64,000 bases of DNA from a virus. Its lineage: Duplodnaviria; Heunggongvirae; Uroviricota; Caudoviricetes. The notes beneath the pieces are model-generated. The model saw nothing but the letters and a program-made list of their open reading frames with translations. It did no database searches and was not told where the DNA came from. Position numbers and translations under genes: made by a program. The stretch's first letter is position 1. Every line of letters begins with the position of its first letter. Positions 4,111-34,970 of this stretch are shown piece after piece. Location: positions 32,001 to 96,000 of IMG/VR virus record IMGVR_UViG_2718218304_000001; one strand, written 5' to 3'.

Positions 4111-6144
4111 TTACTTAACCTGGTGGCCAGGTTTAGCACCGACATCCGGGCTTAACAGGAAGATATCTTTCCCGCCAGGGCCAGCAGCCATCACCATGCC
4201 TTCGGAGATACCGAAGCGCATTTTACGCGGAGCCAGGTTAGCCACCATAATGGTGTGACGACCAATCAGTGCCTGTGGGTCTGGATAAGCAGAACGAATG
4301 CCGGAGAAGACATTGCGTTTTTCACCGCCGAGATCCAGCGTCAGGCGTAGCAGTTTGTCAGAACCTTCTACAAACTCTGCGTTTTCAATCAGCGCCACGC
4401 GCAGGTCAACTTTGGCGAAGTCGTCAAAGGTGATAGTTTCCTGAATCGGGTCGTCAGCCAGTGGGCCAGTTACCGGTGCGGCTGTGGCTTTCACTTCTTC
4501 TTTGGATGCTTCCACCAGTGCTTCAACCTGCTTCATATCGATGCGGTTATACAGTGCCTTGAACGGATTCACTTTATGGCCCAGCAGCGGTTGCTGGATA
4601 CCATCCCAGGTCAGTTCTGTATTCAGGAATGCTTCTGCACGTTCAGTCAGTTTCGGCAGTACCGGCTTCAAGTACGTCATCAGCACGCGGAACAGGTTAA
4701 TGCCCATAGAGCAAATCGCCTGCAGATCGGCATCGCGTCCTTCCTGCTTCGCCACCACCCACGGAGCCTGTTCATCGACATAGCGGTTAGCCAGGTCAGC
4801 CAATGCCATGATTTCACGGATAGCTTTACCAAATTCGCGGCTTTCCCATGCTTCACCAATCACTTCAGCAGCATCAGTGAAGGTTTTATACAGTTGCGGG
4901 TCAGCCAGTTCGCCTGCCAGCACACCGTCAAAACGCTTATTGATAAAGCCCGCGTTACGGGACGCCAGGTTAACCACTTTGTTAACGATATCGGCATTCA
5001 CACGCTGAACGAAATCCTCCAGGTTGAGATCGATATCATCAATACGCGAAGAGAGTTTCGCAGTGTAGTAGTAACGCAGGCTGTCAGCGTCAAAATGATT
5101 CAGCCAGGTGCTGGCTTTAATAAAGGTGCCGCGAGACTTGGACATCTTCGCGCCGTTCACCGTCACATAGCCATGAACAAACAGGTTGGTCGGCTTGCGG
5201 AAGTTGCTGCCTTCCAGCATGGCAGGCCAGAACAGGCTGTGGAAGTAAACAATATCTTTACCGATGAAGTGGTACAGCTCGGCGGTGGAGTCTTTCTTCC
5301 AGTATTCATCGAAGCTGGTGGTATCGCCGCGCTTGTCGCACAGATTCTTGAAGGAACCCATGTAGCCAATCGGCGCGTCCAGCCAGACGTAGAAATATTT
5401 GCCCGGCGCGTTCGGAATTTCAAAACCGAAGTAAGGCGCATCGCGGGATATATCCCACTGTTGCAGGCCGGATTCAAACCATTCCTGCATTTTGTTCGCC
5501 ACCTGCTCCTGCAACGCGCCGCTGCGGGTCCATGCCTGCAACATTTCGCTGAAAGAAGGTAGATCAAAGAAGAAGTGTTCGGAATCACGCATTACCGGGG
5601 TAGCGCCAGAAACCACCGATTTCGGCTCGATCAATTCAGTCGGGCTATATGTTGCGCCGCAGACTTCACAGTTATCGCCGTATTGATCTGGCGCTTTACA
5701 TTTCGGGCAGGTGCCTTTTACAAAACGATCCGGCAGGAACATGCCTTTTTCCGGGTCGTACAACTGAGAGATAGTGCGGTTTTTAATAAAACCGTTCTCT
5801 TTCAGGCGAGTATAGATAAGCTCAGACAACTGACGGTTCTCTTCGCTGTGCGTCGAGTGATAGTTGTCATAGCTGATGTTAAAGCCTGCGAAATCAGTCT
5901 GGTGTTCCTGACTCATTTCGCCAATCATCTGCTCCGGTGTGATACCAAGCTGCTGTGCTTTCAGCATGATCGGCGTACCGTGGGCATCGTCGGCACAGAT
6001 GAAATTAACCTCGTGGCCGCGCATTCGCTGGTAACGAACCCAGACATCAGCCTGGATGTGCTCCAGCATATGGCCGAGGTGGATTGAGCCGTTAGCGTAC
6101 GGCAGCGCGCACGTCACCAGAATTTTCTTCGCGACTTGGGTCAT
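4111..6144 (-). CDS. metG: methionyl-tRNA synthetase
   Basis: Translation starting [29 protein letters not shown] matches E. coli MetG over its full 677 aa as I recall it; the ORF-track start at 6273 is an upstream in-frame extension. Confidence 0.95.
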
Positions 6145-6301
6145 AGTAGGCATTACTTCTTTGTAGTGAAAAGGGGCTTGATAGTAACAAAATGGCCTTA
6201 TGTCTGCCATGTGATAACAGCATTTCTCATAAATGATTAAATGTCGTAGCTGGAGTACACTACAAGGCGACAATTGCGCAAATTAAAATAAAGGAGACGG
6301 G

Positions 6302-7402
6302 ATGAGCGAGTCCAAATCGCCGGATGCCCTGAGAGCAATGGTAGCCGGTACGCTGGCTAATTTTCAGCACCCAACCCTGAAACACAACCTGACTACGCTT
6401 AAAGCGTTACACCATGTTGCGTTGATGGATGACACACTGCATGTCGAACTAATCATGCCTTTCGTGTGGAATAAGCCTTTTGAAGACCTGAAAGAGCAAT
6501 GTAGTGGTGATCTGCTCCGTATCACTGGCGCAAAGGCTATTGACTGGAAGCTGTCGTACAACATTGCCACGCTTAAGCGCGTCAAAAACCAACCAGGCAT
6601 TAATGGCGTTAAGAACATTATCGCCGTCAGCTCAGGCAAGGGCGGCGTGGGTAAATCCTCCACGGCGGTAAACCTGGCACTGGCGTTGGCTGCTGAAGGT
6701 GCGAAAGTTGGTATTTTGGATGCCGATATCTATGGTCCATCAATTCCAACCATGCTGGGCGCGGAAAACCAACGTCCAACCTCACCGGACGGTACTCACA
6801 TGGCACCTATCATGTCTCATGGCCTGGCAACCAACTCTATTGGTTATCTGGTCACCGACGACAATGCAATGGTGTGGCGTGGACCGATGGCCAGCAAGGC
6901 GCTGATGCAGATGTTGCAGGAAACTCTATGGCCTGATCTGGACTATCTCGTTCTCGATATGCCGCCGGGCACTGGTGATATTCAGTTGACGCTGGCGCAG
7001 AACATTCCTGTAACTGGTGCGGTTGTGGTAACTACGCCGCAAGACATCGCGCTGATCGATGCGAAGAAAGGCATTGTGATGTTCGAAAAAGTCGAAGTGC
7101 CGGTACTGGGTATCGTCGAAAACATGAGTGTGCATATTTGCAGTAACTGCGGTCATCACGAGCCAATTTTTGGCACCGGTGGCGCACAGAAACTGGCCGA
7201 GAAATACAACACGCAGTTGTTAGGCCAAATGCCACTTCATATCTCTCTTCGTGAAGATCTGGATAACGGAACACCAACCGTTATTAGTCGTCCAGATAGC
7301 GAATTTACGGCTATTTATCGTGACCTCGCAGATCGCGTTGCCGCCCAAATGTATTGGCAAGGTGAAGTAATACCTGGCGAAATCGCATTCCGCGCAGTGT
7401 GA
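6302..7402 (+). CDS. apbC: Fe-S cluster carrier ATPase ApbC/Mrp
   Basis: Contains GKGGVGKS P-loop and CxxC; near-identical to E. coli Mrp/ApbC from memory. Confidence 0.95.
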   Translation: MSESKSPDALRAMVAGTLANFQHPTLKHNLTTLKALHHVALMDDTLHVELIMPFVWNKPFEDLKEQCSGDLLRITGAKAIDWKLSYNIATLKRVKNQPGINGVKNIIAVSSGKGGVGKSSTAVNLALALAAEGAKVGILDADIYGPSIPTMLGAENQRPTSPDGTHMAPIMSHGLATNSIGYLVTDDNAMVWRGPMASKALMQMLQETLWPDLDYLVLDMPPGTGDIQLTLAQNIPVTGAVVVTTPQDIALIDAKKGIVMFEKVEVPVLGIVENMSVHICSNCGHHEPIFGTGGAQKLAEKYNTQLLGQMPLHISLREDLDNGTPTVISRPDSEFTAIYRDLADRVAAQMYWQGEVIPGEIAFRAV

Positions 7403-8530: not shown

Positions 8531-10093
8531 ATGAAAATGACAAGTATTCAACAACGTGCAGAGCTTCATCGCCAGATCTGGCAAATTGCTAACGATGTCA
8601 GGGGTTCAGTCGATGGATGGGATTTTAAGCAGTACGTTTTGGGCGCGCTTTTTTACCGTTTTATCAGCGAAAATTTTTCCAGTTATATTGAAGCCGGTGA
8701 TGACAGTATCTGTTATGCGAAACTGGATGACAGCGTAATTACTGATGACATTAAAGACGATGCCATCAAAACTAAAGGCTACTTCATCTACCCCAGTCAG
8801 CTTTTCTGCAACGTAGCTGCGAAAGCAAATACTAATGACAGACTGAATGCAGATTTAAACAGCATCTTCGTTGCTATCGAAAGTTCTGCTTACGGTTATC
8901 CTTCAGAAGCTGACATCAAAGGTTTGTTTGCTGATTTCGATACCACCAGTAACCGCCTGGGTAACACCGTTAAAGATAAAAATGCCCGCTTGGCTGCGGT
9001 TCTGAAAGGGGTTGAAGGGCTAAAACTTGGTGACTTCCATGAACATCAGATTGACCTGTTCGGTGACGCCTATGAGTTCCTGATTTCTAACTATGCGGCG
9101 AATGCCGGTAAGTCCGGCGGCGAGTTCTTTACACCGCAGCACGTCTCTAAGCTGATTGCACAACTGGCTATGCACGGGCAGACCCACGTTAACAAAATCT
9201 ACGACCCGGCAGCAGGCTCCGGTTCGCTGTTGTTGCAGGCGAAAAAACAGTTTGATGACCATATCATCGAAGAAGGTTTTTTTGGTCAGGAAATCAACCA
9301 TACGACCTATAACCTGGCGCGTATGAACATGTTTTTGCACAACATCAACTACGACAAGTTTGATATCAAGCTGGGTAATACACTGACTGAGCCGCACTTC
9401 AGAGATGAAAAACCGTTTGATGCCATCGTTTCTAACCCGCCGTATTCGGTGAAATGGATTGGCAGCGATGACCCGACGCTGATTAACGATGAACGTTTTG
9501 CCCCGGCTGGCGTTCTGGCCCCCAAATCCAAAGCTGACTTTGCGTTTGTATTACATGCGCTGAACTATCTTTCGGCCAAAGGTCGCGCTGCGATTGTCTG
9601 CTTCCCAGGCATTTTTTACCGTGGCGGCGCGGAGCAGAAAATCCGTCAGTATCTGGTCGACAATAACTATGTCGAAACCGTGATTTCACTGGCACCGAAT
9701 CTGTTCTTTGGCACCACTATTGCCGTCAATATTCTGGTGCTGTCTAAACATAAAACGGATACCAAAGTTCAGTTTATTGATGCCAGCGAACTGTTCAAAA
9801 AAGAGACTAACAACAACATTCTGACCGATGCTCATATCGAACAGATTATGCAGGTATTTGCCAGCAAGGAAGATGTTGCTCATCTGGCGAAATCTGTTGC
9901 GTTTGAGACTGTTGTCGCGAATGACTATAACCTGTCGGTGAGCAGCTATGTGGAAGCGAAAGATACTCGCGAAATTATCGATATCGCTGAGCTGAATGCT
10001 GAGCTGAAAACCACGGTCAGCAAAATCGACCAGTTGCGTAAAGATATTGATGCGATTGTTGCTGAGATTGAAGGTAGCGAGGTACAGGCATGA
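8531..10093 (+). CDS. hsdM: type I restriction-modification methyltransferase subunit HsdM (type IC, EcoR124I-like)
   Basis: NPPY motif ([10 protein letters not shown]) and AdoMet-binding DPAAGSGS; sequence matches my recollection of EcoR124I HsdM. Confidence 0.9.
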
Positions 10094-11337
10094 GCGAGCT
10101 GAGTTATCTGGAAAAACTGCTGGATGGGGCTGAGGTTGAGTGGGTAGCATTAAATAAATTAGCAACTTTTTTAAAAGGGAAGTCTTTACCTAAAGAAAAA
10201 ATAACTCCAGATGGCAATAGATATTGTATTCATTACGGTGAGCTTTTCACTCATTATGGTCCCATAATTGACAAAGTATGCTCAAAAACAAACCAAGCAA
10301 TCAATGAGTCAATTCTATCTGAAAAAAATGATGTTCTAATGCCAACGTCAGACGTTACACCAAGAGGTTTGGCTACAGCTAGTTGCATTCAAGAAAGTGG
10401 CGTTATTTTAGGCGGCGATATTTTGATTATTAGATGCTCTGGTGTTGATGGTAGATATCTAAGTAATTTCATAATAAATAACAAAAAAAAGATATTGCAA
10501 ATGGTTAAAGGTTCTACTGTTTATCATTTGTATGCTAAAGATATAGGTAAATTACTTATCCCCATCCCTTGCCCCAACAACCCGGAAAAGTCGCTGGCTA
10601 TCCAGTCTGAAATCGTCAGGATTCTGGATAAATTTACTGCACTTACCGCTGAGCTTACCGCTGAGCTTAGCATGCGTAAAAAACAATACAACTACTATCG
10701 CGACCAGTTGTTGAGTTTTAAAGAGGGTGAGGTTGAGTGGAAAGCTTTGGGGGAAATTGGTGAAGTTCGTATGTGTAAACGAATCCTAAAATCACAAACA
10801 TCTTCTGAGGGAGAGATTCCATTTTATAAAATTGGGACATTTGGTAAGGAACCCGATTCCTATATATCTAGAAAACTATTTAATGAATTTAAAGAAAAAT
10901 ATAGTTATCCTAAAGTTGGCGAAGTATTGATTTCTGCCAGTGGGACCATCGGCAGGACTGTTATATTTGATGGTAGGGAATCATATTTCCAGGATAGCAA
11001 TATTGTCTGGATTGAAAATAATGAAAAAATAGTTTTAAATAAATATTTATTCTATTTCTATAAAATAGCAAAATGGGGAATATCTGAAGGTGGAACTATT
11101 AAAAGACTTTATAATGATAACTTAAGAAAACTTATGATACCAGTACCATTTCCTGATTCTCCTGAAAGATCGCTAGTTGAACAACAAAAAATAGTGAAAT
11201 TACTGGATAAATTTGATGCTTTGACCAATTCCATCACCGAAGGTCTTCCGCGTGAAATCGAGTTGCGCCAGAAACAATACGAGTACTATCGTGATTTACT
11301 GTTCAGTTTTCCCAAACCTGAAACTATCAGTAACTAA
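10090..11337 (+). CDS. hsdS: type I R-M specificity subunit HsdS (type IC)
   Basis: ATGA start/stop overlap with hsdM; two AT-rich target-recognition domains around a conserved central region with a TAELTAEL repeat. Confidence 0.85.
10642..10668 (+). repeat. 12-bp tandem repeat x2 (CTTACCGCTGAG) in the hsdS central region, encoding TAEL-TAEL
   Basis: Read directly; this repeat number is known in the EcoR124I/II family to set the spacer length of the recognition site. Confidence 0.8.
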
Positions 11338-11458
11338 TTGACCATTGCTACCGACCGGATCACCTTAACATCCGGTCTATATAGAGACTATTTTTTACAC
11401 GCCGGAAGTCGCCCTTAAAGCCCTTCCGGCCCTTGCCAGACGGCACAAAGGATGCGCT

Positions 11459-14400
11459 ATGACTCATCAGACACACACCATTGCTGAATCCAATAACTTT
11501 ATCGTTCTTGATAAGTACATCAAAGCCGAGCAAACAGGCGACAGCTACCAGAGCGAATCGGACCTGGAACGTGAACTGATTCAGGATCTGCGGAATCAGG
11601 GCTATGAATTTATTTCCGTAAAATCTCAGTCGGCGATGCTGGCCAACGTTCGGGAACAGCTTCAGAACCTCAATGGTGTGGTGTTTAATGACAGCGAATG
11701 GCGGCGTTTCACGGAGCAGTATCTGGATAACCCGAGCGATGGCATCCTGGATAAGACCCGTAAAATCCATATCGACTATATTTGCGACTTTATTTTTGAT
11801 GACGAGCGTCTTGAGAACATCTATTTGATAGATAAAAAGAATCTCATGCGCAACAAGGTGCAGATTATCCAGCAGTTTGAACAGACGGGTTCTCATGCTA
11901 ACCGTTATGACGTCACGATCCTGGTTAATGGCTTACCGCTGGTACAAATCGAACTGAAAAAGCGCGGCGTGGCGATTCGTGAGGCCTTTAACCAGATACA
12001 TCGTTACAGCAAAGAGAGTTTTAACAGCGAAAATTCTCTGTTTAAGTATCTGCAACTGTTTGTCATTTCCAACGGCACCGATACCCGTTACTTTGCCAAC
12101 ACGACAAAGCGCGATAAAAACAGTTTTGACTTCACCATGAATTGGGCGAAATCAGACAACACGCTGATTAAAGACCTCAAAGACTTTACCGCCACCTTTT
12201 TCCAGAAACATACCCTGCTTAATGTCTTAGTGAACTACAGCGTATTCGATGTTAGCCAAACGCTACTGGTGATGCGACCGTACCAGATTGCCGCCACTGA
12301 GCGCATTCTGTGGAAAATTAAGAGTTCCTTTACAGCGAAGAACTGGTCAAAACCGGAAAGCGGTGGGTATATCTGGCACACTACCGGTTCAGGTAAAACC
12401 CTCACCAGCTTTAAAGCCGCGCGTCTGGCAACAGAGCTGGACTTTATTGATAAAGTCTTCTTCGTGGTCGACAGGAAAGACCTCGATTACCAGACCATGA
12501 ATGAATATAAGCGTTTTTCGCCAGACAGCGTCAACGGCTCGGAAAATACCGCAGGTCTTAAACGCAATCTGGATAAGGACGATAACAAAATTATCGTCAC
12601 CACTATTCAGAAACTTAATAACCTGATGAAAGCAGAAAGCGACCTGCCTGTATACAATCAGCAAGTGGTGTTTATATTTGATGAATGTCACCGCAGCCAG
12701 TTTGGAGAAGCGCAGAAAAACCTGAAGAAGAAATTCAAACGCTATTATCAGTTTGGTTTTACCGGCACACCTATTTTCCCGGAAAACGCCTTAGGCTCAG
12801 AAACGACCGCCAGCGTATTTGGTCGTGAATTGCATTCGTATGTAATTACCGATGCGATTCGTGATGAAAAAGTGCTCAAATTCAAGGTGGACTACAACGA
12901 TGTGCGGCCACAGTTTAAATCTTTAGAGACAGAAACCGACGAGAAAAAACTGAGTGCGGCTGAAAATCAGCAGGCATTTCTTCATCCCATGCGTATACAG
13001 GAAATTACGCAATATATTCTGAATAACTTCCGCCAGAAGACCCACCGTACTTTCCCAGGTTCCAAAGGCTTTAATGCCATGCTGGCAGTGAGTAGCGTGG
13101 ATGCCGCGAAAGCCTATTACGCGACGTTTAAACGGTTACAAGAGGAAGCAGCTAATAAATCGGCTACCTATAAACCGCTGCGTGTTGCAACAATCTTCTC
13201 CTTTGCCGCCAATGAAGAACAAAATGCCATTGGTGAAATTTCCGATGAAACTTTTGATACCAGCGCAATGGACAGCAGTGCTAAAGAGTTTCTTGACGCT
13301 GCAATTCGTGAGTATAACAGCTATTTTAAAACTAACTTCAGCACCGACAGTAACGGTTTTCAGAACTACTATCGTGATTTAGCCCAACGGGTTAAAAATC
13401 AGGATATCGATCTGTTAATTGTCGTTGGGATGTTTTTAACCGGCTTCGACGCTCCAACATTGAACACGCTATTCGTCGATAAAAACTTGCGTTTTCACGG
13501 CCTGATGCAGGCATTCTCCCGTACCAACCGCATTTATGACGCTACTAAAACCTTCGGTAACATCGTCACTTTTCGGGATCTGGAACGCTCAACCATTGAT
13601 GCCATAACGCTGTTTGGTGATAAAAATACTAAAAATGTGGTGTTAGAAAAGAGTTATGCTGAGTATATGGAAGGCTTTACAGATGCTGCCACTGGTGAAG
13701 CTAAACGCGGCTTTATGGCAGTAGTTTCAGAACTGGAACAACGGTTCCCTGACCCTGCCAGTATTGAAAGTGAAAAAGAGAAGAAAGACTTCGTAAAACT
13801 GTTTGGTGAATACCTGCGTGCCGAGAACATCCTGCAAAACTATGATGAATTTGCCACGCTGAAAGCCCTGCAACAAATCGATCTTAGCGATCCTGTTGCG
13901 GTAGAAAAATTCAAAGCAGAACATTATGTGGATGATGAAAAGTTCGCTGAATTGCAAACAATTCGTCTCCCTGCTGAACGCAAGATTCAGGATTATCGTT
14001 CTGCCTATAACGATATTCGCGACTGGCAGCGCCGTGAGAAAGAAGCTGAGAAAAAAGAGAAATCAACCACTGACTGGGATGACGTAGTTTTTGAGGTCGA
14101 TTTGCTGAAGTCTCAGGAAATAAACCTGGATTATATCCTTGGACTGATTTTCGAACACAACAGACAAAATAAAGGCAAGGGCGAAATGATCGAAGAGGTC
14201 AAACGCTTAATTCGTTCAAGCCTGGGGAACCGGGCGAAAGAGGGCCTGGTGGTCGATTTTATTCAGCAAACGAACCTGGATGATTTACCAGACAAAGCCA
14301 GTATCATTGAGGCATTCTTTACGTTTGCTCAACGCGAACAGCAACGTGAAGCAGAAGCATTGATAAAAGAAGAAAATCTCAATGAAGAGGCGGCGAAACG

Positions 14401-14575
14401 CTATATTCGCACGTCTTTAAAACGCGAATACGCCACCGAAAATGGCACAGAATTAAACGAGACATTACCAAAACTTAGTCCGTTAAACCCGCAATATAAA
14501 ACGAAAAAACAGACCGTTTTCCAGAAAATCGTCACGTTTATTGAAAAGTTCAAAGGAGTAGGTGGGCAGATATAG
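11459..14575 (+). CDS. hsdR: type I R-M restriction subunit HsdR (helicase-nuclease)
   Basis: 1038 aa; Walker A TGSGKT and DECH box; only a 120-nt gap after hsdS. Confidence 0.9.
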
Positions 14576-19987: not shown

Positions 19988-20581
19988 CTAAGCAGCCTTC
20001 TTTGATTGTCTTTTTTTCCTGATCACATTCGCAGGATCATACCCTCCCAGACTTTTCATGACGTCCAAAGGGATCTTGCTTATAGAGTGCCCAGCGTCCT
20101 GACAGAATCCTCGAAAAACAACGAGCATACTGCCACCTGGGTTGATGTTTACTTCTACCTGACCCAGATTTACGTCAGGCTCGACAAACGCTACGCGGCC
20201 ACCAGACAGAATAATCGTCTCATTCGCACACTCTGTTGCACGCTCATACCACTTTGTATCTAGGGATTGAGGAATTAGCATCACTGTTGTAACTCCGCGA
20301 GCCTGCTCACGTATAGCCGCATCAATCCAGGGGTAGATTTTGGAGTAGGGTGGATTGAGGAAGGCAATTGTACCTGGCTGTCCCCATTCAGATTTCAAAG
20401 CATCACGCTCAACGCCTATGAAATTAGGCAGCTTTGCATTGTCCTTGTTGCAGGCAACGTCAACATCAAATGTCACTCCAAGATAACGTTGAATGGCAGA
20501 AAACAGCCAGTCAGGTGTTCTCCAGAGGTCACGAAGAGAGTTGTCACGCTTTCGCTGTTTGATTTTTTCGGCTGCAATCAT
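19988..20581 (-). CDS. phage-type DNA N6-adenine methyltransferase (Dam-like)
   Basis: FLNPPYS catalytic motif in a ~190-aa protein, typical of small phage Dam methyltransferases. Confidence 0.7.
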   Translation of the reverse strand: MIAAEKIKQRKRDNSLRDLWRTPDWLFSAIQRYLGVTFDVDVACNKDNAKLPNFIGVERDALKSEWGQPGTIAFLNPPYSKIYPWIDAAIREQARGVTTVMLIPQSLDTKWYERATECANETIILSGGRVAFVEPDVNLGQVEVNINPGGSMLVVFRGFCQDAGHSISKIPLDVMKSLGGYDPANVIRKKRQSKKAA

Positions 20582-20640
20582 CTTCTTTCTCGATAGGTAA
20601 GTAAATACCTATTTTTGCATTTGATTTTATGTCTGGCAAT

Positions 20641-20690
20641 CAAATAAAACGCGCCAGAAATGCAAACGAGAAGCTCTCTGGCGCGTTTTT
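20641..20690 (-). terminator. terminator hairpin (AAACGCGCCAGA...TCTGGCGCGTTT)
   Basis: Long inverted repeat plus U-run on the minus strand downstream of the 20765..21574 gene. Confidence 0.5.
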
Positions 20691-20764
20691 GTGGTGCTGG
20701 GTATGTGATTGGCTTACCCAGTACTATAAAGCTCTCTATGGGCTTTATTTTAAGTAGGGGAACG

Positions 20765-21574
20765 TCATCCAATAGTGTACTCCGCGACAAACTTCTTAAC
20801 GATCGGTGATTCTTCGTTCAATGTTAGATTTCCACCGTCTCTAACGGCAATTCCTGTCGCTGGAAATACAGCCATCATTTGCCCAGCCTGAGTTGACGCA
20901 GTGTTAAGCGGATACGGTTTTTCTGGATTGCTCATTAAAGCAATCTTAATACTATTACTTGTAGCCTTCTTTTCTGTGAGAAGGTGTCTCATGGAAATTA
21001 CCGTGTAAACACTAATATCTGGACCTCCGCTAAACCAATTAAGAAGGTTTAATATCTTATCCTTTGCTTTGACAGGCGCGTTATCGTAAGCGTCTAAGAA
21101 AATATCTTTTTCTAAGCCCGCTTTATTGAAAAACGAATCATCTTTATCACTTAAAGTAAAACGAGGACCTCTTGCAGTACGAGCTTTTTTATTTGTATTG
21201 CTATCATTTGACTGTTGAACTTTTAATTCATCATTAACCTCAACACACTCTTCAACCTCAATAAATCCCAATTGTTCTGGCTCGTTTTCGGCAGCTTCAA
21301 CACTTTCAGCGTTAATTACGTTTATAGGCTCATGCGCTAACTCCAACTCATTTAAAGCAGAGCTGAAATCACCTGCTTTTTCTTCATTGAAAAGTTCTTC
21401 GGCAACATCATCAGAACTCATGGCTACGCCAGCATCTAGGCCGAGCAGCAGATCGTCAATATCATCAGTATTTTCAACCTGTGCAGCTTTTTTTACTGGT
21501 TCATCAAGTGATTGCAACATGGCTGTCAGCTCGTCCAGATCATCATTTGTCATTACATTTTCAACCGAACTCAT
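20765..21574 (-). CDS. hypothetical acidic protein
   Basis: ORF track; Asp/Glu-rich N-terminal half. Confidence 0.4.
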   Translation of the reverse strand: MSSVENVMTNDDLDELTAMLQSLDEPVKKAAQVENTDDIDDLLLGLDAGVAMSSDDVAEELFNEEKAGDFSSALNELELAHEPINVINAESVEAAENEPEQLGFIEVEECVEVNDELKVQQSNDSNTNKKARTARGPRFTLSDKDDSFFNKAGLEKDIFLDAYDNAPVKAKDKILNLLNWFSGGPDISVYTVISMRHLLTEKKATSNSIKIALMSNPEKPYPLNTASTQAGQMMAVFPATGIAVRDGGNLTLNEESPIVKKFVAEYTIG

Positions 21575-21732
21575 GTAAGTCTCCTTCTGTTTGGTTACAT
21601 TTGCGTTTCGATGGCTGCATTTTGACTAAACCTATCAGGCGGAAAAGTATTAAATACAGGCAGAAAATGATTGAAAGGCGACTGTTCTTTAAAAAAAAGC
21701 CTACTTTAAACTTTTTAAAGTAGGCTTTTGTT

Positions 21733-22290
21733 TTACACAATTTCAGAGGGTAATTTAAAAAATCCGTACTTATTACGTGCCTTAAAGAAGCATTGCATCA
21801 TTAAGTTTGTGTCATATAAGGCACTATGTGCTTTGGCATGATCGTATATAAAGCCAAGAGAGAAGGCCAACTCTTCAAGGCGGGGACGTTTACCGTCTTC
21901 TGTGGCCCACAATCCCGATAACATAGTATCTATAACAGGAACTTCTGGCAGTCTTACTCCATACCCTGAAAACTCGTGTCGAATAAATGGTATATCAAAT
22001 GCTTCGCCGTTATGAGCAACCCACACACTACATGCCCCCATATAAGCGCCAATTTCGCTGGCATGATTTGACAACAAAGGTTCAGCTGCGAGCTGTTCCA
22101 ATGAAATGCCATGAACGGCTTGAGCTTTCGGATCTATGTTTCTGCGAGGGTTAAAACGCATCTCCAGACTATCAATATGTCTCTGTGTCTCCAGTTCATA
22201 GCGGGTAATTGCGATTTCAATAATTTTATGACCAGCAAGGAAATCCAGTCCCGTAGACTCGATATCGATGCCTGCAACAATCGTTGTCAT
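21733..22290 (-). CDS. DEDDh 3'-5' exonuclease (DnaQ/epsilon-like)
   Basis: Exo I DIESTG, Exo II HNGEAFDIPF, Exo III HSALYDT. Confidence 0.7.
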   Translation of the reverse strand: MTTIVAGIDIESTGLDFLAGHKIIEIAITRYELETQRHIDSLEMRFNPRRNIDPKAQAVHGISLEQLAAEPLLSNHASEIGAYMGACSVWVAHNGEAFDIPFIRHEFSGYGVRLPEVPVIDTMLSGLWATEDGKRPRLEELAFSLGFIYDHAKAHSALYDTNLMMQCFFKARNKYGFFKLPSEIV

Positions 22291-22299
22291 CAGAACTCC

Positions 22300-22719
22300 T
22301 TACAACTTCTTAGCGCCCTTAAGTAGTGCGCTACGTACAAATTGAGCCGCTTTTTTCAAAGTTTCTTCACTGGTTTCACAGACAATCGGATCTTTCCACT
22401 TACCTGACACAGTGTTGAGAATATTGATTTGGTTGCTATCCAGACAAACAGAGATATAAAGCACTGTGCCACCAGCCAGCATCAAATGCATAGGAAACAG
22501 AGGCTTTTTACTGCCTTCACTGAACTGAGACATGGCGATGTTAATGGCTTCACCCACTTGTGTACCAACAAGCCCCTGCGCAGTTTCGAATATGGCACGA
22601 ATAGCCAGACGAGCCTCTCGATCGCTCATAAGCGACCGGGAATGTTCGTCCGCTACACGAATCAAAGCCTCTGTTGTTTTCCGATCCAGTTCATCTTCAA
22701 GCAACATTTCACTAAACAT
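22300..22719 (-). CDS. hypothetical protein
   Basis: ORF track only. Confidence 0.3.
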   Translation of the reverse strand: MFSEMLLEDELDRKTTEALIRVADEHSRSLMSDREARLAIRAIFETAQGLVGTQVGEAINIAMSQFSEGSKKPLFPMHLMLAGGTVLYISVCLDSNQINILNTVSGKWKDPIVCETSEETLKKAAQFVRSALLKGAKKL

Positions 22720-22780
22720 TTTTTATCCTTAACCCATTTTGAGAGTTTTATTGTCGCAATGTCGAAGAGGCGAACAATTT

Positions 22781-23425
22781 CTAATGAACGGTCACTCGGC
22801 CACAGAACCGGTTTTCTATCTTTTCTACAGCGTTATCTAGCATTCTCATCACTGATCTGGCTCTTGCTTCAACCGTGCGATATCGGTTGGAAACGACGAA
22901 GGTTTGCAGATCTCCCCTTTGCGGATGCAGGTGAATTTTTGTCAGTTCCCCGCACATCAACGCATCAATACGAGCGACATACAGACGGTCTAATGATGCT
23001 CGTTGTGATCGCAAGTAATCTCGCTCTGAGAGAGCGACTCCCGGGCGTAAGCCAGCAATGGCGTTAAAGTTTGAAATAGCAGTTTTGTGGCAAAACTTTT
23101 CGATATCGAGGGCTAACTCAATACACCGATCTTCATTTGTATGGCCGACCAAATCCAACGTGTAGGCCATAACATCAGCAGGTGTGCGATCGATAACAAA
23201 GCCTTCAACACCACGCGTAAGTAGCTCTATATGCTTTGCTATTTCCATTTGAATCTGAAGCCGCTCATATAGAGGCATAGAATCACCTACTCGAACACCG
23301 AGGCGGCTCATCAAACTTCCGACACCAGCATCCACGTAAGGGATTCCGTAATGTTTGTCGATATATTTAGCCAGGGTTGTTTTCCCACTGCCCTGAGCAC
23401 CAGTGATCCCAATCCGGTAATCCAT
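22781..23425 (-). CDS. P-loop NTPase, putative nucleotide kinase
   Basis: Walker A GAQGSGKTT near the N-terminus; sits among nucleotide-metabolism genes. Confidence 0.45.
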   Translation of the reverse strand: MDYRIGITGAQGSGKTTLAKYIDKHYGIPYVDAGVGSLMSRLGVRVGDSMPLYERLQIQMEIAKHIELLTRGVEGFVIDRTPADVMAYTLDLVGHTNEDRCIELALDIEKFCHKTAISNFNAIAGLRPGVALSERDYLRSQRASLDRLYVARIDALMCGELTKIHLHPQRGDLQTFVVSNRYRTVEARARSVMRMLDNAVEKIENRFCGRVTVH

Positions 23426-23901
23426 TACGACCTTCTGTATACGATCTGCGAAAAGCCAGGCTCTTCCTCGCTGGCTCGTTGGGTATAAGCTGTTTCAACA
23501 GGCACAAAGCCTAAGTTACGCATCATGCTTGCCGGGAAGAATGCATCGGCGTTTGGTACATCAACGCCGATGTGGGAGAGCCAAATCTCTTCAACATGCG
23601 GCATGAATAGCGAGTAAATTTGTTCCCCGCCAATCACCCACACAGGCTCTGGTAATCGCAACACATCATCCACACCAGCAAGGTAGAATCCATTTGGTAC
23701 AAAGCCATGAGAGCGCGTCAAAACGAGGTTATGACGCTCTGGAAGAGGGCGTTTGAGACTTTCCATCGTTTTACGTCCCATAACGACAGTGGCGTTTTTG
23801 GTGAGTCTCTTAAATAGCTTCAGATCGGTAGAACAACGCCAGGGGAGTTCATTCGCTATGCCGATCTCATAGTTACGGCCAACAGCAGCGATCATCTTCA
23901 T
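23425..23901 (-). CDS. dihydrofolate reductase
   Basis: MKMIAAVGRNYEIG..LPW..VVMGRKT..LP.R.N.VLTR...WVIGGEQIY follows the FolA family pattern. Confidence 0.8.
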   Translation of the reverse strand: MKMIAAVGRNYEIGIANELPWRCSTDLKLFKRLTKNATVVMGRKTMESLKRPLPERHNLVLTRSHGFVPNGFYLAGVDDVLRLPEPVWVIGGEQIYSLFMPHVEEIWLSHIGVDVPNADAFFPASMMRNLGFVPVETAYTQRASEEEPGFSQIVYRRS

Positions 23902-24311
23902 TTGCTCACCTCATAGATGACCGGTCGATGGTGAGAGTCGGCTAAAGCGGCACGGAGTCGAGGATCGTGCACCAGCGCAGCGATAAGCAGATCGCCTTTA
24001 TGCTCCGCTAATGTGCGCTTAATATGCTTCTCATAACTGGTGCCATTCGGTACGAGATGAAGCCAGTCATAATCAACGCCAAAATCTTTCAGCCATCGTT
24101 TAGTTGGCGCTTCAAGAGTTTCAGAGCGGCTACTGATAAGCACCACTTCAGCCCCTGAGCGAGCAAAACCACGCAACATACGGCTGGTGGGGAAAATGAG
24201 TTCATCACCGGCAATGAGCTGGCCTGCATCCGCGTCAGATACTGATTTACGATGGCTGGCATTTGCCAGCACACCTTCAATTTCGCATAAGACATACATA
24301 CCTCTTGCCAT
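23898..24311 (-). CDS. hypothetical protein (possibly HAD-like fold, catalytic motif not evident)
   Basis: Start refined to the ATG at 24311, one nt after the thyA stop. Confidence 0.25.
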   Translation of the reverse strand: MARGMYVLCEIEGVLANASHRKSVSDADAGQLIAGDELIFPTSRMLRGFARSGAEVVLISSRSETLEAPTKRWLKDFGVDYDWLHLVPNGTSYEKHIKRTLAEHKGDLLIAALVHDPRLRAALADSHHRPVIYEVSK

Positions 24312-24312
24312 A

Positions 24313-25443
24313 TCACACCGCCACTGGAACCTTGATCCACGGTAGAGGGTCATAGCCAAGAATTAAAACCTCGTCCCATTTGAAATCATCCAACTCTGAC
24401 CATTCATGAGGGAAAATAACGACCGGATCTGAATGCTCTGGAGCCTGTCGCTTCATTAGCTCACACACACCTTCCATGTGGTTGTTGTACAAATGCACGT
24501 CAAAGCCAAAATGCACAAATGCACCGGCCATGTGACCCGTAATCTTCGCGAGAAAATGAGTGAGAATGCCATAGCCAGCAATATTGAATGGCATACCAAC
24601 AAAAGTGTCTACGCTACGCTGTACGAGGCAGGAGTTGAGGATGCGTTTGGGGATTCCAAGTTCATCCAGTTCAGCTTCAGTAACACTGCCGTCCATCTCC
24701 AGATCGTATAGCATCTTGGTGTAGATAGACTCGTAACCGAGGCGACTGTGTTGAAGACCAATGTCAGTTGCCATCGTTAAACGGGTTTCAAAATCCAGCT
24801 CACGACTCCACAAAGAGAAGACAAAGTGGCAAGGTGGCAGTTTCATATCCTCAAGCTCGCCTACGTTCCATGCGTTAAGCATGATGCGACGATCGGTAGG
24901 GTTCGTGCGCAGTGTATCGACAATACGCTGTAGCTGATCGATTTCACGGGACAGCACTACGCGATCTTCACTGATACCCAGGTATCCCTCGACTTTGTAC
25001 CCGCGTTCACGGAAAGTATCGATCTTGCTCAGATATTCACTATGGCTCACGATGCGGGTATCTTCCCATCGACGCCACTGCTTACCGTAAACCGGCCCCA
25101 AATCGCCATTCTCATCGGCCCATGCATCCCAAATCTTAACGCCGTTATCCTTGAGAAATTGGATGTTGCCCGTGCCTTTCAGATACCACTCAAGTTCGAC
25201 AAGTAGTGGCTTAAGATTTACCGCCTTTCCAGAAATAAGCGGCACAGTCCCACCAGTAAGCATGTAGTAAGAGGGAACGTAGCAGGTGCTTAAAGTACCA
25301 GTGCCTGTGCGATCATCAGCCTGCACGCCGCTTTTAAGCACCGTCTCAATAACTTTTGCATACGATGCGTTTGTTACCTGACCGTTCGTATGCTCACGAT
25401 TCAAAAGGAGTGACACAAAAACCTCACAAAGATAAGTAACCAC
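24313..25443 (-). CDS. thyA: thymidylate synthase (long form with two internal insertions)
   Basis: DRTGTGT, WADENGDLGPVYGKQWR, NAWNVGEL..PPCH, SVDTFVGMPFNIA, DVHLYNNH, GYDP match ThyA; 376 aa against ~264 in E. coli. Confidence 0.85.
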   Translation of the reverse strand: MVTYLCEVFVSLLLNREHTNGQVTNASYAKVIETVLKSGVQADDRTGTGTLSTCYVPSYYMLTGGTVPLISGKAVNLKPLLVELEWYLKGTGNIQFLKDNGVKIWDAWADENGDLGPVYGKQWRRWEDTRIVSHSEYLSKIDTFRERGYKVEGYLGISEDRVVLSREIDQLQRIVDTLRTNPTDRRIMLNAWNVGELEDMKLPPCHFVFSLWSRELDFETRLTMATDIGLQHSRLGYESIYTKMLYDLEMDGSVTEAELDELGIPKRILNSCLVQRSVDTFVGMPFNIAGYGILTHFLAKITGHMAGAFVHFGFDVHLYNNHMEGVCELMKRQAPEHSDPVVIFPHEWSELDDFKWDEVLILGYDPLPWIKVPVAV

Positions 25444-25493
25444 TTATTCATTGCGTGAGTTTACATTTATTGAGAGAACAAGACCAGACAGAT

Positions 25494-25520
25494 AAAAAAA
25501 TGGTGGCCATAGGCCACCAA
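25494..25520 (-). terminator. rho-independent terminator (TGGTGGCCATAGGCCACCA + U-run)
   Basis: Perfect hairpin flanked by A7 on the plus strand (U7 on the minus strand). Confidence 0.55.
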
Positions 25521-25587
25521 AAACGAATAGTTGTTTCAGAAATTTAACGCGCCAATGCAATATACACAGATAGATAACTACCTACAA

Positions 25588-26457
25588 TTATTTTTTGAAC
25601 ATTCCGTACATTGCTGAGGCTTTAGCTTGCTCAACAAAGGAGGATAAATCGACATCACTATAGGTTGGAGACTTCAGAATCTTTCCATCGGAAATTCGAA
25701 AACCGATCATCTTATCGGTGCCATCAGCATGGCGAAATCCCAGGTCAGAAGAGTCGTATTTGCAGTTGGCCACAGCATGGCGACGCTCTTCGGCATCTGC
25801 AGGCCATAATTTTGTCATGTTGGACCGATGAATTTCGCCAACCAGCTCGACGACATTGATACCGAGGAAATCAGCCAGTCGATAGGTCATCATGCACGCC
25901 ACATAGATTTTGTTCATTACACGGCGCAGTTCCTGAATCAGTTCAGAATCCTTAACAGTCTTGTTCTCAAGTTTATCTGCCAGCTCTTCGAGCATATATG
26001 ACGCCTCACGAGCTTCCTGAAATGGCATTGCCATATCATCGAAAACAGTGTTACCAGGCACAAAAATTGTCTGCATAAAGCGATCAATGCTCTGTTCCTG
26101 CGTGTAATAGGTCATGCCGGTAGAAATACCACCTTTGATGGCGACCATCGTACCAACACCAACGTATAAAAAGTCGGCCATTGCATCCAGCAGTTGCTCA
26201 ATATCCCCATTCATTGCAGCTGGAATACCTTCCACTACAGCTTCTTCATGAATCAGGCTTGCACGGAGACGAAGCAGCTCTGGTGTCGGCATAACGCGTC
26301 TCGGATGCTGGAAGAGTTCATGAAACTGATCGACCATCTTGTAAATACTTTCAGTAGCTACACCATGACCTTCATGCAACTCATATGGTTCTGGCTTAAA
26401 TCCAATGAGACGATCGGTGGCAAGTTTCAGGTGGTCAGTCAGTTTGGTAAAGTTCAT
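25588..26457 (-). CDS. MazG-like nucleotide pyrophosphohydrolase (tandem domains, tentative)
   Basis: EExxE-type acidic helices (IHEEAVVEG, LEELADKLE); tentative. Confidence 0.4.
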   Translation of the reverse strand: MNFTKLTDHLKLATDRLIGFKPEPYELHEGHGVATESIYKMVDQFHELFQHPRRVMPTPELLRLRASLIHEEAVVEGIPAAMNGDIEQLLDAMADFLYVGVGTMVAIKGGISTGMTYYTQEQSIDRFMQTIFVPGNTVFDDMAMPFQEAREASYMLEELADKLENKTVKDSELIQELRRVMNKIYVACMMTYRLADFLGINVVELVGEIHRSNMTKLWPADAEERRHAVANCKYDSSDLGFRHADGTDKMIGFRISDGKILKSPTYSDVDLSSFVEQAKASAMYGMFKK

Positions 26458-26534
26458 GCTAGTTTTGTTCCTTCTTAATTCTTGTGATCCATTGTGGCCC
26501 AGCGTTGCCAGGCCACATAATGCTTTGTATCGGT

Positions 26535-27677
26535 TTACAGGTCTGCAAACTGGCTTAGAGAAGCCTTATCCACGGTAGAATCGATCTGACCTACCAGATA
26601 TGTGCTTTGCTCTGCCTCTTGTGGCGCAATTTGCAGTGTGTCGGTTAACAACCACTTGTTCATCCAGACCAGCGGATCAGTGGTAACTTCTGGAAATAAA
26701 GCCTTCAGGCCAAGACGATTCATAGCCAGATTGGTGCGGTATTTTACATAGGTTTTGAGAATATCCGCGTTTAAACCAATCATCGAACCGTCTTTGAAGA
26801 GATAGTCTGCCCAGTTCATTTCTTGTTCGGCGACTGATTTCATGGTGTCGTAAATGACGTTTTCTTCATCAGCAGCAATCTCTTTCCACAATAAACCTTC
26901 GCGACCGGTACGCATGAAGCGGATCATGCGTTCAGTTCCTTCGCAATGCAGAGCTTCATCACGGGCAATAAAGCGCATAATTTTGGTGTTACCCTCAAGC
27001 AACTTCCGTTCACCAAAGGCAAACGTACATGCAAAACTTACGTAGAAACGGATCGCCTCAAGCGCATTAATGGACACCAACGTGCGGAAAAGCTGACGAT
27101 GCAAAGGGTATGGCTCCCAGCCATATTCATTTACGTACAGACGCTCAAATTCCTTCTCACCTAACGACTGGCGCTCGCAGGTCATCCCATAAAGCCTGTC
27201 ATATTCAGCAGAGATACTGATCGCTCGGTTGATGATTTCTTCATCCGTAACAATACCGTCAAAAACAATGCTCGGATCGTCCACCATGCCACGAATAATG
27301 TGGGTGTAGCTGCGGCTATGGATAGTCTCAGAGAAAGACCACGTTTCAACCCACGTTTCCAGTTCAGGAATAGAGATAAGCGGCAGAAGCGTTGCATTTG
27401 GGCTACGTCCCTGAACTGAATCGAGTAACGTTTGATAACGGAGATTGCTCAGAAAAATGTGACGTTCGTGGTCCCGCAGCTTCGTGTTGAAGTCGATACG
27501 ATCACTCGAAATATCAACTTCTTCCGGCCGCCAGAAGAAAGACAATTGACGTTCAATCAACTTTTCAAAATCACGGTATTTTTGCTGATCGTAACGTGCC
27601 ACGTTGACAGATTGTCCGAGGAACATAGGCTCTTTGGTTGCATCATTAGCACCCAAACGGAACGTTGAATATGACAT
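26535..27677 (-). CDS. nrdB: ribonucleotide reductase class Ia beta subunit
   Basis: 380 aa with a diiron/tyrosyl-radical subunit pattern; directly downstream of nrdA. Confidence 0.85.
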
Positions 27678-27783
27678 GTGTTTTTCCTTTTTCTTTTTTA
27701 GTGCGTTTAAACAAGTTGTTATCTTATGTGTTTAAACAAGGCTTACAAATCAAAGAGAAGGTGGGGATATCCCCCACCATATG

Positions 27784-30099: not shown

Positions 30100-30140
30100 G
30101 TATCACCAAATAAAGAGGGCCACTAAATATAGTGGCCCAT

Positions 30141-30170
30141 GTTAATAGATAAGTACTTACCTATCAATGA
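30141..30170 (-). promoter_or_regulatory. sigma70-like promoter overlapping a palindrome (TTGATA-17 bp-TAACAT) upstream of nrdA
   Basis: Minus strand reads TTGATAGGTAAGTACTTATCTATTAACAT; member of the motif-2 family. Confidence 0.4.
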
Positions 30171-30172
30171 AA

Positions 30173-30742
30173 TCAAATGAGAGACTTAAGAACATCGCGC
30201 ACCTGGCGGAACTGATCTGTTTGCATACCGGTATGGATGGCAGCCACCGCATCAGCCAAATGTTCGTTTTTGTTCACGAGAACATCCTGTCCAGATTGCT
30301 TACGACGCAGCCACGGTGCTTTAGGGTGTTTTTTCGTAGCCCACTGGATAATCTCTTCTTTCGATGTAGTAAGTTTATTGCCGACAAAATGCTTGATTTC
30401 GTTTGGAGTAACCTGGATCAATGGCTTATCCACACACGCAAGTACACCGATACAAATACCGTAAGACGTCTGCGAACGAGAGTTTTGGCTCCCAACCGGT
30501 AGCTCACAAAAAACCATATTTGCCTTATCAATGATTGGCTTCGCAACACGCCATATTTCACTGGCGCGGCGCAGATCGTCACTGTTCACACGAACGGTCT
30601 TTTTGTTACTCCCCGCTTTAGTCTCAACAAGAGTAAGGCCGTGAATCTCAAGTTCGTCCGTTTCAAGGTCTAAAGTGCCCACAGCAAGCCCAAAGTTGCT
30701 CATAGAGGGATCAACACCAACTACGCTGATTTTTTTACTCAT
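30173..30742 (-). CDS. RuvC-like Holliday junction resolvase
   Basis: N-terminal VVGVDPS acidic motif and RNase-H-like pattern. Confidence 0.5.
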   Translation of the reverse strand: MSKKISVVGVDPSMSNFGLAVGTLDLETDELEIHGLTLVETKAGSNKKTVRVNSDDLRRASEIWRVAKPIIDKANMVFCELPVGSQNSRSQTSYGICIGVLACVDKPLIQVTPNEIKHFVGNKLTTSKEEIIQWATKKHPKAPWLRRKQSGQDVLVNKNEHLADAVAAIHTGMQTDQFRQVRDVLKSLI

Positions 30743-30751
30743 ATAGTCTCC

Positions 30752-33401: not shown

Positions 33402-33630
33402 ATAACACCTCTGATACCGTGTGTTAGCTTTTGGCCTTCTTTCAATCTGAACTCCGTATGCGCCGGGAAGGATCTGCGCCTCAATACGCCTTTTCTTGTT
33501 AACCTTCCAAGATAAAACGCTACGGGATTTCCTTGTGGCGGGTAGGGCTTGTGAAACATCACCGTCTGGCCTCGTTCAAGTCTTTTCATCGTGATGGCAA
33601 AGTCTCGAAAGCTCCCATAACGACTTTGCT

Positions 33631-34716: not shown

Positions 34717-34970
34717 GTGTTTTTCCTTTGTGGTTATTTTGATACAAATTCTAAGAGCAATGAGGAGGTAAACAACTATGCATAACGGTATGTTAGGAAT
34801 GAAACGAGCGCCTTAATATACAAAATTTATAAGTAAGTATATACCTATTTATCGTGGCGCAACTTTGCTTGTCTGTATGACTAAAAATAAGACAGGATCA
34901 CTGTAGAACGCTATGAGAGCTATTTTGAGGGGGCGTAGATTCTATCTACGCCAATATACGATCTGGAGGG

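What the first reader, a model, noticed from the sequence alone, without database searches (positions are those of the whole stretch)
10642..10668. hsdS central TAEL repeat present in two copies (specificity-switch hotspot)
The 12-bp unit CTTACCGCTGAG is tandemly duplicated in the conserved region between the two target-recognition domains. In the EcoR124I/EcoR124II pair, two versus three copies change the spacer of the recognition sequence by one base pair through unequal crossing-over. This allele has the two-copy form, and the locus is a predictable site of strain-to-strain specificity change.
Basis: established knowledge. Interest (0 to 1): 0.4.

Follow-up and report, generated by a model that had tools for sequence, protein, structure and literature searches.

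The report
Spacer-length repeat in type IC hsdS
The specificity gene of a plasmid-borne type I restriction system carries two copies of a known 12-bp "ruler" repeat, and sister plasmids carry three, so the finding is correct but is a textbook mechanism in a new allele.

Summary
CTTACCGCTGAG occurs as two exact tandem copies at 10642-10665, with the period continuing to 10669. It is in frame in hsdS (10090-11337) and encodes [18 protein letters not shown]. The operon hsdM-hsdS-hsdR is type IC. HsdM and HsdR match the EcoR124 subunits over their full length, and HsdS matches EcoR124 only in the conserved regions, so its two DNA-recognition domains are different.

A review states that 2 versus 3 TAEL copies give GAA N6 RTCG versus GAA N7 RTCG. 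The predicted strain-to-strain variation is real. Four sequenced E. coli plasmids carry this same hsdS with three copies. Three near-isogenic 2-copy/3-copy pairs exist on three plasmid backbones. In two pairs the 12 bp is the only difference in the operon; the third also has two hsdR substitutions. Two copies are the common form of this allele: 34 of 37 complete E. coli genomes, 25 of 29 plasmid records.

Across the family, pattern scans found 37 two-copy, 16 three-copy and 1 four-copy locus, and protein clusters show natural one-copy derivatives.

Not shown: enzyme activity, the recognition half-sites, the switching rate, and whether changes arise by slippage, unequal crossing-over or hsdS cassette recombination. 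This is a known mechanism in an uncharacterised allele. Interest is low.

The parts
8531..10093 (+). hsdM, the methyltransferase subunit, 520 aa. Its stop overlaps the hsdS start in ATGA.
   Evidence: ORF. NCBIfam TIGR00497 hsdM, 650.8 bits. Matches EcoR124 HsdM 7bst_D over residues 1-519, 1150.9 bits. ATGA overlap read. RefSeq annotates the start at 8537.
10090..11337 (+). hsdS, the specificity subunit, 415 aa (RefSeq WP_001293038.1).
   Evidence: ORF and translation. Annotated as restriction endonuclease subunit S. Matches EcoR124 HsdS only in the conserved regions.
10153..10548 (+). N-terminal target-recognition domain (about residues 22-153). Different from that of EcoR124I. Half-site unknown.
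   Evidence: No alignment to 7bst_A between residues 29 and 153. Boundaries are approximate.
10549..10758 (+). Central conserved region (about residues 154-223), near-identical to EcoR124 HsdS. It contains the long helix that carries the repeat.
   Evidence: Alignment to 7bst_A. The AlphaFold2 model has a helix at residues 165-207, i.e. 10582-10710.
10636..10644 (+). Degenerate upstream copy ACT GCA CTT (T-A-L). It lacks the Glu codon and uses different codons.
   Evidence: Sequence. A metagenome allele, L051, has ACT GCA GAG CTT here, which restores TAEL.
10642..10665 (+). Two exact tandem copies of CTTACCGCTGAG (10642-10653 and 10654-10665). The period continues to 10669. The TAEL TAEL codons are 10645-10668 (residues 186-193).
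   Evidence: Three-copy versions of the same gene are in L001, L002 and L003 and in L064 and L066.
10759..11136 (+). C-terminal target-recognition domain (about residues 224-349). Half-site unknown.
   Evidence: Only weak alignment to the EcoR124 C-terminal recognition domain. The same domain, joined to other N-terminal recognition domains, occurs in other E. coli plasmids: hits covering query 472-1248 at 98.6%.
11137..11334 (+). C-terminal conserved region (residues 350-415), including the second long helix. By homology this helix pairs antiparallel with the central helix.
   Evidence: Near-identical to 7bst_A residues 340-404. Model helix at residues 358-404. The antiparallel coiled-coil arrangement is from the review.
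11459..14575 (+). hsdR, the restriction/translocase subunit, 1038 aa, after a 121-bp gap.
   Evidence: ORF. TIGR00348 hsdR, 764.8 bits. Matches EcoR124 HsdR 2w00_A over residues 1-1038, 2274.5 bits.

Best explanation
This is the length-setting repeat of a type IC (EcoR124-family) specificity subunit. The system sits on an SSU5-family phage-plasmid of E. coli.

How it most likely works: HsdS holds its two DNA-recognition domains apart with two long antiparallel helices. The TAEL repeat lies in the first helix. Each extra TAEL, a little over one helical turn, moves the domains about 0.34 nm apart and rotates them about 36 degrees. That equals one base pair of DNA, so the non-specific gap in the bipartite target grows by one base pair.

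This allele has two copies. By analogy with EcoR124I it should methylate adenines 7 nt apart. The three-copy sister allele should recognise the same two half-sites one base pair further apart, with an interval of 8.

Copy number changes by gain or loss of one exact 12-bp unit, through slippage or unequal crossing-over. hsdS cassettes also move between operons by homologous recombination.

Shown here: the repeat, its frame and its position; type IC membership by sequence; natural 2-copy and 3-copy forms of the same allele.

Inferred: the effect on the target sequence, the activity of the system, and the route and rate of change.
For: - Repeat and frame.
- Type IC identity: HsdR matches EcoR124 HsdR over 1038 aa (2274.5 bits). 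HsdM matches over 519 aa (1150.9 bits). The HsdS conserved regions are near-identical to 7bst_A, with TAELTAEL at the same place. The gene order and the ATGA overlap fit.
- The repeat lies in a long helix, residues 165-207, and a second long helix spans 358-404 (AlphaFold2 model).
- Mechanism in the literature: PMC3874165 gives 2 versus 3 TAEL for N6 versus N7. It also reports that EcoR124I/EcoDXXI hybrids with altered repeat number changed their targets as predicted. PMC6789123 gives methylomes of Neisseria gonorrhoeae in which NgoAV with 1 versus 2 LEAT repeats methylates GAC N6 TGC versus GAC N7 TGC.
- Natural variation of this allele: three-copy hsdS, otherwise identical, in NZ_CP031294.1, NZ_MG904996.1, NZ_CP097183.1 and NZ_AP022163.1.
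- Near-isogenic pairs: window versus p15ODDR has 0 substitutions in the 6-kb operon plus the 12-bp insertion. pYUSHP6-3 versus pYUSHP31-2 has 0 in the operon. pRHB34-C14_2 versus pWP5-S18-ESBL-08_2 has 2 substitutions in hsdR.
- Family-wide: 37 two-copy, 16 three-copy and 1 four-copy among 55 loci. A second allele pair has 2 and 3 copies (L038/L045). One-copy derivatives are identical to two-copy alleles apart from one TAEL.
Against: - No methylome or restriction data for this allele were available, so the change in target is inferred from other enzymes.
- The half-sites of these recognition domains are unknown, so the gap cannot be stated as N6.
- The review notes that it is unclear how the coiled coil accommodates an extra turn in only one helix.
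- The hsdS block is 100% identical across backbones whose hsdM and hsdR differ by 1-3%. The three pairs may therefore reflect the spread of one three-copy cassette rather than three local events.
- Model confidence over the repeat is only moderate (pLDDT about 68-71).
- Promoter-like matches are no more frequent than in shuffled sequence, so expression is unsupported.
Confidence: 0.85

Rival explanations
1. The repeat is a fixed structural feature of this allele and not an active site of change. The three-copy genes in databases would descend from one old event and have been spread between plasmids by homologous recombination of the hsdS cassette.
For: hsdS and its flanks (window 9434-11378 versus the IncFIA/IncR operon; 9098-13414 versus the IncY operon) are 100% identical inside operons that otherwise differ by 1-3%. 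This shows cassette exchange. The two-copy form dominates: 34 of 37 and 25 of 29 records, and at least 1000 contigs.
Against: On each of three backbones the 2-copy and 3-copy plasmids are almost identical outside the repeat. Other alleles independently show 2 versus 3 copies (L038/L045) and 2 versus 1 copy (P0019/P0047, P0053/P0080), with no other difference in the protein pairs. Change at this site has therefore happened repeatedly in the family.
Confidence: 0.25
2. The copy-number differences are assembly or sequencing artefacts.
For: Some related records clearly carry errors. CP059946.1 has scattered 1-bp indels through hsdS.
Against: The difference is always one exact in-frame 12-bp unit. 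It is seen in four independently sequenced complete plasmids from Viet Nam, Switzerland, China and Japan. Three-copy forms of other type IC alleles appear in 16 viral and metagenome contigs. A 36-bp array is far shorter than a sequencing read.
Confidence: 0.02
3. The system is silent or inactive on this plasmid, so repeat number has no phenotypic effect.
For: Nothing here shows expression. Promoter-like matches do not exceed chance. Related plasmids carry broken hsdS genes, such as the 4-bp deletion in NZ_JBWDPT010000001.1.
Against: All three genes are intact and full length, and they are near-identical to the biochemically active EcoR124 subunits. The exact HsdS protein is kept on at least 1000 contigs.
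Confidence: 0.12

Closest known systems
EcoR124I / EcoR124II (type IC, plasmid R124)
   Same: Same operon layout. HsdM and HsdR are near-identical over their full length. The HsdS conserved regions are the same, and TAEL repeats sit at the same position in the central helix. Natural two-copy and three-copy forms of one allele exist, as for EcoR124I and II.
   Different: Both target-recognition domains differ from those of EcoR124, so the half-sites are not GAA and RTCG and remain unknown. One flanking residue differs (TAEL-S-MRKK here, TAEL-N-MRKK in EcoR124). The carrier is an SSU5-family phage-plasmid, not the R124 plasmid.
EcoDXXI and EcoprrI (type IC)
   Same: Same family and the same TAEL repeat. 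The review lists both with three copies and a methylation interval of 8, like the three-copy sister allele found here.
   Different: This window has two copies. No prrC-like gene lies between hsdS and hsdR; the gap is 121 bp.
NgoAV of Neisseria gonorrhoeae (type IC, LEAT repeats)
   Same: A four-residue repeat in the central helix varies among strains. Methylomes show that one more repeat gives one more N in the gap.
   Different: In NgoAV a poly-G frameshift that truncates HsdS also changes specificity. No such tract was seen here. The repeat register and the species differ.
Phase-variable type I systems with simple sequence repeats (phasevarions)
   Same: Repeat-length change in an hsd gene alters methylation. 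PMC7383803 discusses tracts next to the TAEL coiled coil.
   Different: Here the unit is 12 bp in only two or three copies, and changes stay in frame. The expected effect is a change of target, not on/off switching. A high switching rate has not been shown.

Membership tests
Type IC restriction-modification (EcoR124 family) | Gene order hsdM-hsdS-hsdR, with hsdM and hsdS coupled and hsdR set apart | tested here: met
   ORFs at 8531-10093, 10090-11337 and 11459-14575, all on the + strand. ATGA overlap of hsdM and hsdS. 121-bp gap before hsdR.
Type IC restriction-modification (EcoR124 family) | HsdM and HsdR closely related to the EcoR124 subunits (families were defined by complementation, hybridisation and antibody cross-reaction) | tested here: met
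   By sequence only: HsdR matches residues 1-1038 of 2w00_A, 2274.5 bits. HsdM matches residues 1-519 of 7bst_D, 1150.9 bits. Subunit complementation cannot be tested here.
Type IC restriction-modification (EcoR124 family) | HsdS with conserved N-terminal, central and C-terminal regions around two variable recognition domains | tested here: met
   Alignment to 7bst_A covers residues 1-28 and 154-415. Residues 154-223 and 350-415 are near-identical and the recognition domains are divergent. The invariant columns of 41 homologues fall in the same regions.
Type IC restriction-modification (EcoR124 family) | Tandem 12-bp TAEL repeat in the central conserved helix | tested here: met
   Two exact copies at 10642-10665, inside the model helix at residues 165-207.
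Type IC restriction-modification (EcoR124 family) | Repeat number sets the gap of the bipartite target (one TAEL equals one base pair) | not testable with these tools
   This needs methylomes or restriction assays of the two-copy and three-copy forms. The precedent comes only from other enzymes.
Type IC restriction-modification (EcoR124 family) | Active ATP-dependent restriction and m6A modification | not testable with these tools
   The genes are intact, but there are no expression or activity data.
Phase-variable (repeat-switching) type I systems | Reversible, high-frequency repeat-length change within a clonal population | not testable with these tools
   Only differences between strains were seen. 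No read-level or culture data were available.

The most novel reading that the evidence does not exclude
The repeat may be an actively and recurrently switching ruler on mobile elements. One hsdS allele would have gained a unit independently on three backbones: an SSU5-like phage-plasmid, an IncY P1-like plasmid and an IncFIA/IncR plasmid. Across the family, nature would use at least four settings (1, 2, 3 and 4 copies), not only the classical 2 and 3. Phage-plasmids could then re-key their methylation identity by one base pair and so become mutually restricting with close relatives. The evidence allows this reading but does not require it, because cassette recombination can explain the three pairs.
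Probability: 0.3. Interest if true: 0.4.

Novelty: new member of a known kind. Interest (0 to 1): 0.2.

Why it matters
The mechanism is textbook, so the main value is confirmation. A sequence-only prediction (two copies here, variation expected among relatives) was tested against public genomes and held. The work identifies three ready-made natural pairs of plasmids that differ in their operons by little or nothing besides one 12-bp unit. These pairs could serve as clean test cases for how one extra helical turn in only one helix of the coiled coil is accommodated, a point the review calls unresolved. They could also test whether a one-base-pair change in target isolates sister phage-plasmids from each other. 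The natural one-copy and four-copy alleles extend the range usually quoted for this family.

Tried and rejected
- Copy-number census by short BLAST queries. I tried to count 1-, 2-, 3- and 4-copy alleles across all 5,426 E. coli genomes using flank-repeat-flank queries. This failed. The tool joins the left and right partial matches into one place, so coverage no longer reports copy number, and alleles with AAC instead of AGC after the repeat lose the right-hand seed. No counts from these calls are used.
- Exact-sequence look-up of hypothetical 0-, 1-, 3-, 4- and 5-copy versions of this HsdS among 15 billion proteins. Only the two-copy form was found, on at least 1000 contigs. The three-copy protein WP_094310829.1, which does exist in RefSeq plasmids, was also reported absent. 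The negatives for 1, 4 and 5 copies are therefore not informative.
- Recognition sequence. No paper mentions either protein accession or this kind of plasmid together with type I restriction. The recognition domains do not match EcoR124's. No half-sites could be assigned.
- Primary papers were not held: Gubler 1992, Gubler and Bickle 1991, and Youell and Firman 2008. I therefore could not check what engineered one-copy or four-copy proteins do. From memory, the 1991 paper linked extra repeats to relaxed gap specificity. That recollection is unverified.
- Promoter scan. One match lies in the hsdS-hsdR gap (11365-11394), but matches are no more frequent than in shuffles. It is not used as evidence.
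- The genome-contig scan gave only one locus, from Mixta tenebrionis, because that collection holds one genome per species.

Full report
**1. The observation**

The window reads ACT GCA CTT ACC GCT GAG CTT ACC GCT GAG CTT AGC at 10636-10671. Tandem Repeats Finder reports one array at 10642-10669: period 12, 2.3 copies, 100% matches, unit CTTACCGCTGAG. An exact search finds two full copies at 10642-10665 and no other copy on either strand of the window. A perfect 12-nt tandem duplication is expected about 0.004 times in 64 kb (my arithmetic), and only five tandem arrays reach score 40 in the whole window.

The array is in frame in a 415-aa ORF at 10090-11337, which translates ...[35 protein letters not shown].... 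The preceding T-A-L codons (10636-10644) are a degenerate copy without the Glu codon.

**2. What the gene and operon are**

Three co-directional ORFs make up the operon:
- hsdM, 8531-10093, 520 aa;
- hsdS, 10090-11337, 415 aa, overlapping hsdM in ATGA;
- hsdR, 11459-14575, 1038 aa, after a 121-bp gap.

NCBIfam assigns hsdM and hsdR with scores far above the cut-offs. Against solved structures, HsdR matches EcoR124 HsdR over all 1038 residues (2274.5 bits). HsdM matches EcoR124 HsdM over 519 residues (1150.9 bits).

HsdS matches EcoR124 HsdS (7bst_A) only at residues 1-28 and 154-415. It is near-identical in the central region (154-223) and in the C-terminal region (350-415), and TAELTAEL sits at the same place. 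The first recognition domain does not align at all, and the second aligns only weakly. This is therefore a type IC system with different recognition domains.

An AlphaFold2 model built on 41 homologues (mean pLDDT 80) places the repeat, residues 186-193, inside a 43-residue helix (165-207). A second long helix spans residues 358-404. This fits the antiparallel coiled coil described for S subunits.

**3. Context**

The window belongs to an SSU5-family phage-plasmid of E. coli.
- The operon is 100% identical to that of several plasmids of about 110 kb, such as pMB5646_2.
- Most of the window is 97-99.5% identical to pMB5646_2.
- Window 20000-44000 is 98% identical to Escherichia phage Cyrano and 77% identical to Salmonella phage SSU5.
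- Cyrano, CMS-2020a and PhiR41_1 do not appear among the hits to the operon, so the restriction system looks like variable cargo.

The operon lies between a DNA polymerase III theta gene and a pseudogene.

**4. The known mechanism**

The Loenen et al. review (PMC3874165) states the following.
- The 12-bp TAEL-coding sequence is present twice in EcoR124I (GAA N6 RTCG) and three times in EcoR124II (GAA N7 RTCG).
- The extra repeat moves the domains 0.34 nm apart and rotates them 36 degrees.
- EcoDXXI and EcoprrI have three repeats.
- Hybrids with changed repeat number changed their targets as predicted.

An independent methylome study of Neisseria gonorrhoeae found NgoAV with 1 versus 2 LEAT repeats methylating GAC N6 TGC versus GAC N7 TGC (PMC6789123).

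**5. Test of the prediction that relatives differ in copy number**

*Counts for this allele.* Using the full hsdS as query:
- 37 complete E. coli genomes carry this allele at full length. Of these, 34 have two copies (one also has a 4-bp frameshift) and 3 have three copies, judged from match lengths of 1248 versus 1260.
- In the plasmid collection, 25 records have two copies and 4 have three.
- The three-copy records are NZ_CP031294.1, NZ_MG904996.1, NZ_CP097183.1 and NZ_AP022163.1. Their HsdS equals the window protein plus one TAEL and nothing else.

*Near-isogenic pairs on three backbones.*
- The window versus p15ODDR (SSU5-like): no substitution in the 6-kb operon, only the 12-bp insertion.
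- pYUSHP6-3 versus pYUSHP31-2 (IncFIA/IncR): none in the operon.
- pRHB34-C14_2 versus pWP5-S18-ESBL-08_2 (IncY): two substitutions in hsdR plus the 12 bp.

**6. One event or several**

Between backbones the operons differ by 1-3%. Even so, hsdS and its flanks form a 100%-identical block: 9434-11378 against the IncFIA/IncR operon and 9098-13414 against the IncY operon. hsdS cassettes are therefore exchanged by homologous recombination through the conserved hsdM 3' and hsdR 5' sequences.

The three pairs may be three local gains, or one gain followed by cassette spread. The data do not separate these two possibilities, and they do not separate slippage from unequal crossing-over.

**7. The family at large**

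An exact-flank DNA pattern that allows 1-5 copies found 1 genome locus, 23 viral loci and 31 metagenome loci. The distribution was:

| Form | Loci |
|---|---|
| Two copies | 37 |
| Three copies | 16 |
| Four copies (L041, 428 aa) | 1 |
| Extra GAG giving [14 protein letters not shown] (L051) | 1 |
| One copy | 0 |

Clustering the recognition domains shows another allele with both 2 and 3 copies (L038/L045). The EcoR124I domains themselves occur with 2 copies (L012, L015).

Among the 120 best protein clusters, three have a single TAEL. Two of these equal a two-copy protein minus one TAEL with no other difference: P0047 versus P0019, and P0080 versus P0053. The third, P0040, differs from P0019 at one further position.

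Gain and loss at this site has therefore recurred in the family, and nature samples 1 to 4 copies. In this sample two copies, not three, is the common state.

**8. What is inferred, not shown**

- I could not assign half-sites to these recognition domains, so N6 should not be asserted. The safer prediction is a methylated-adenine interval of 7 for two copies and 8 for three, as in Table 1 of the review.
- Expression and activity were not tested, and promoter-like matches are at chance level.
- The review notes that it is unclear how the coiled coil accommodates a turn added to only one helix.
- A recent review states that EcoR124I modification does not prefer hemimethylated substrates and that the system establishes readily in new hosts (PMC12707154). 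This may help a cell survive a change of specificity. That link is my inference.

**9. Verdict**

This is an uncharacterised allele of a well-known family that uses a well-known mechanism.

The added value is modest. The work provides three natural near-isogenic pairs suitable for experiments. It also gives evidence of cassette exchange and a natural copy-number range of 1 to 4. A specialist would not be surprised.

Noticed in passing
window 9986-10008: The 3' end of hsdM has its own 12-nt near-duplication (GCTGAGCTGAAT x1.9, 100% matches). It encodes AELNAEL in the C-terminal part of HsdM, and the AEL motif echoes the TAEL repeat of HsdS. No length variants were seen in the five related operons compared.
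   Followed up: partly
window 9434-11378 (versus L063) and 9098-13414 (versus L065): hsdS with the adjoining ends of hsdM and hsdR is a 100%-identical block inside operons that otherwise differ by 1-3% between plasmid backbones. This indicates cassette-like exchange of the specificity gene by homologous recombination.
   Followed up: yes
L004 (NZ_JBWDPT010000001.1), equivalent to window 10442-10445: A 4-bp deletion in the first recognition domain splits hsdS into a short ORF and a pseudogene in an otherwise identical operon, so some sister plasmids have lost specificity-subunit function. CP059946.1 (L005) has scattered single-base indels that look like assembly errors.
   Followed up: partly
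L041 (metagenome contig OASQ01000144.1) 643-725; proteins P0047, P0040, P0080: Natural four-copy (428 aa) and one-copy type IC hsdS alleles exist. P0047 and P0080 equal the common two-copy proteins P0019 and P0053 minus one TAEL. The usual account mentions only two and three copies.
   Followed up: partly
L051 (metagenome contig OGXX01010214.1) 554-615: This allele has an extra GAG codon before the repeat, giving [14 protein letters not shown]. The helix is one residue longer than in the two-copy form, which would shift the helix by a third of a turn rather than a full turn.
   Followed up: no
window 35811-35916: A 42-bp unit is repeated 2.5 times (70% matches) immediately upstream of the RepB-family replication initiator gene, which starts at about 35937. 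These look like iterons.
   Followed up: no
window 61012-61050 and 55447-55473: Two further short tandem arrays: an 18-bp unit x2.2 at 95% matches and a 13-bp unit x2.1. Their context was not examined.
   Followed up: no
window 56550-57203, minus strand: A cluster of four tRNA genes (Ser-tga, Thr-tgt, Tyr-gta, Asn-gtt) on the phage-plasmid. The segment just upstream (about 55994-56936) does not align with pMB5646_2.
   Followed up: no
window 4111-7402 and about 20000-35000: The phage-plasmid carries host-like genes next to the restriction operon: metG, apbC, a HumD-family translesion DNA polymerase gene and a DNA polymerase III theta gene. Further on it carries nrdAB, thymidylate synthase, dfrA51, an N6-adenine methyltransferase and rnhA, according to the annotation of the near-identical pMB5646_2.
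   Followed up: no
(protein collection): The exact three-copy HsdS (WP_094310829.1) is reported absent from the 15-billion-protein collection although it is annotated on four RefSeq or GenBank plasmids. Exact look-ups there can therefore miss real proteins.
   Followed up: partly
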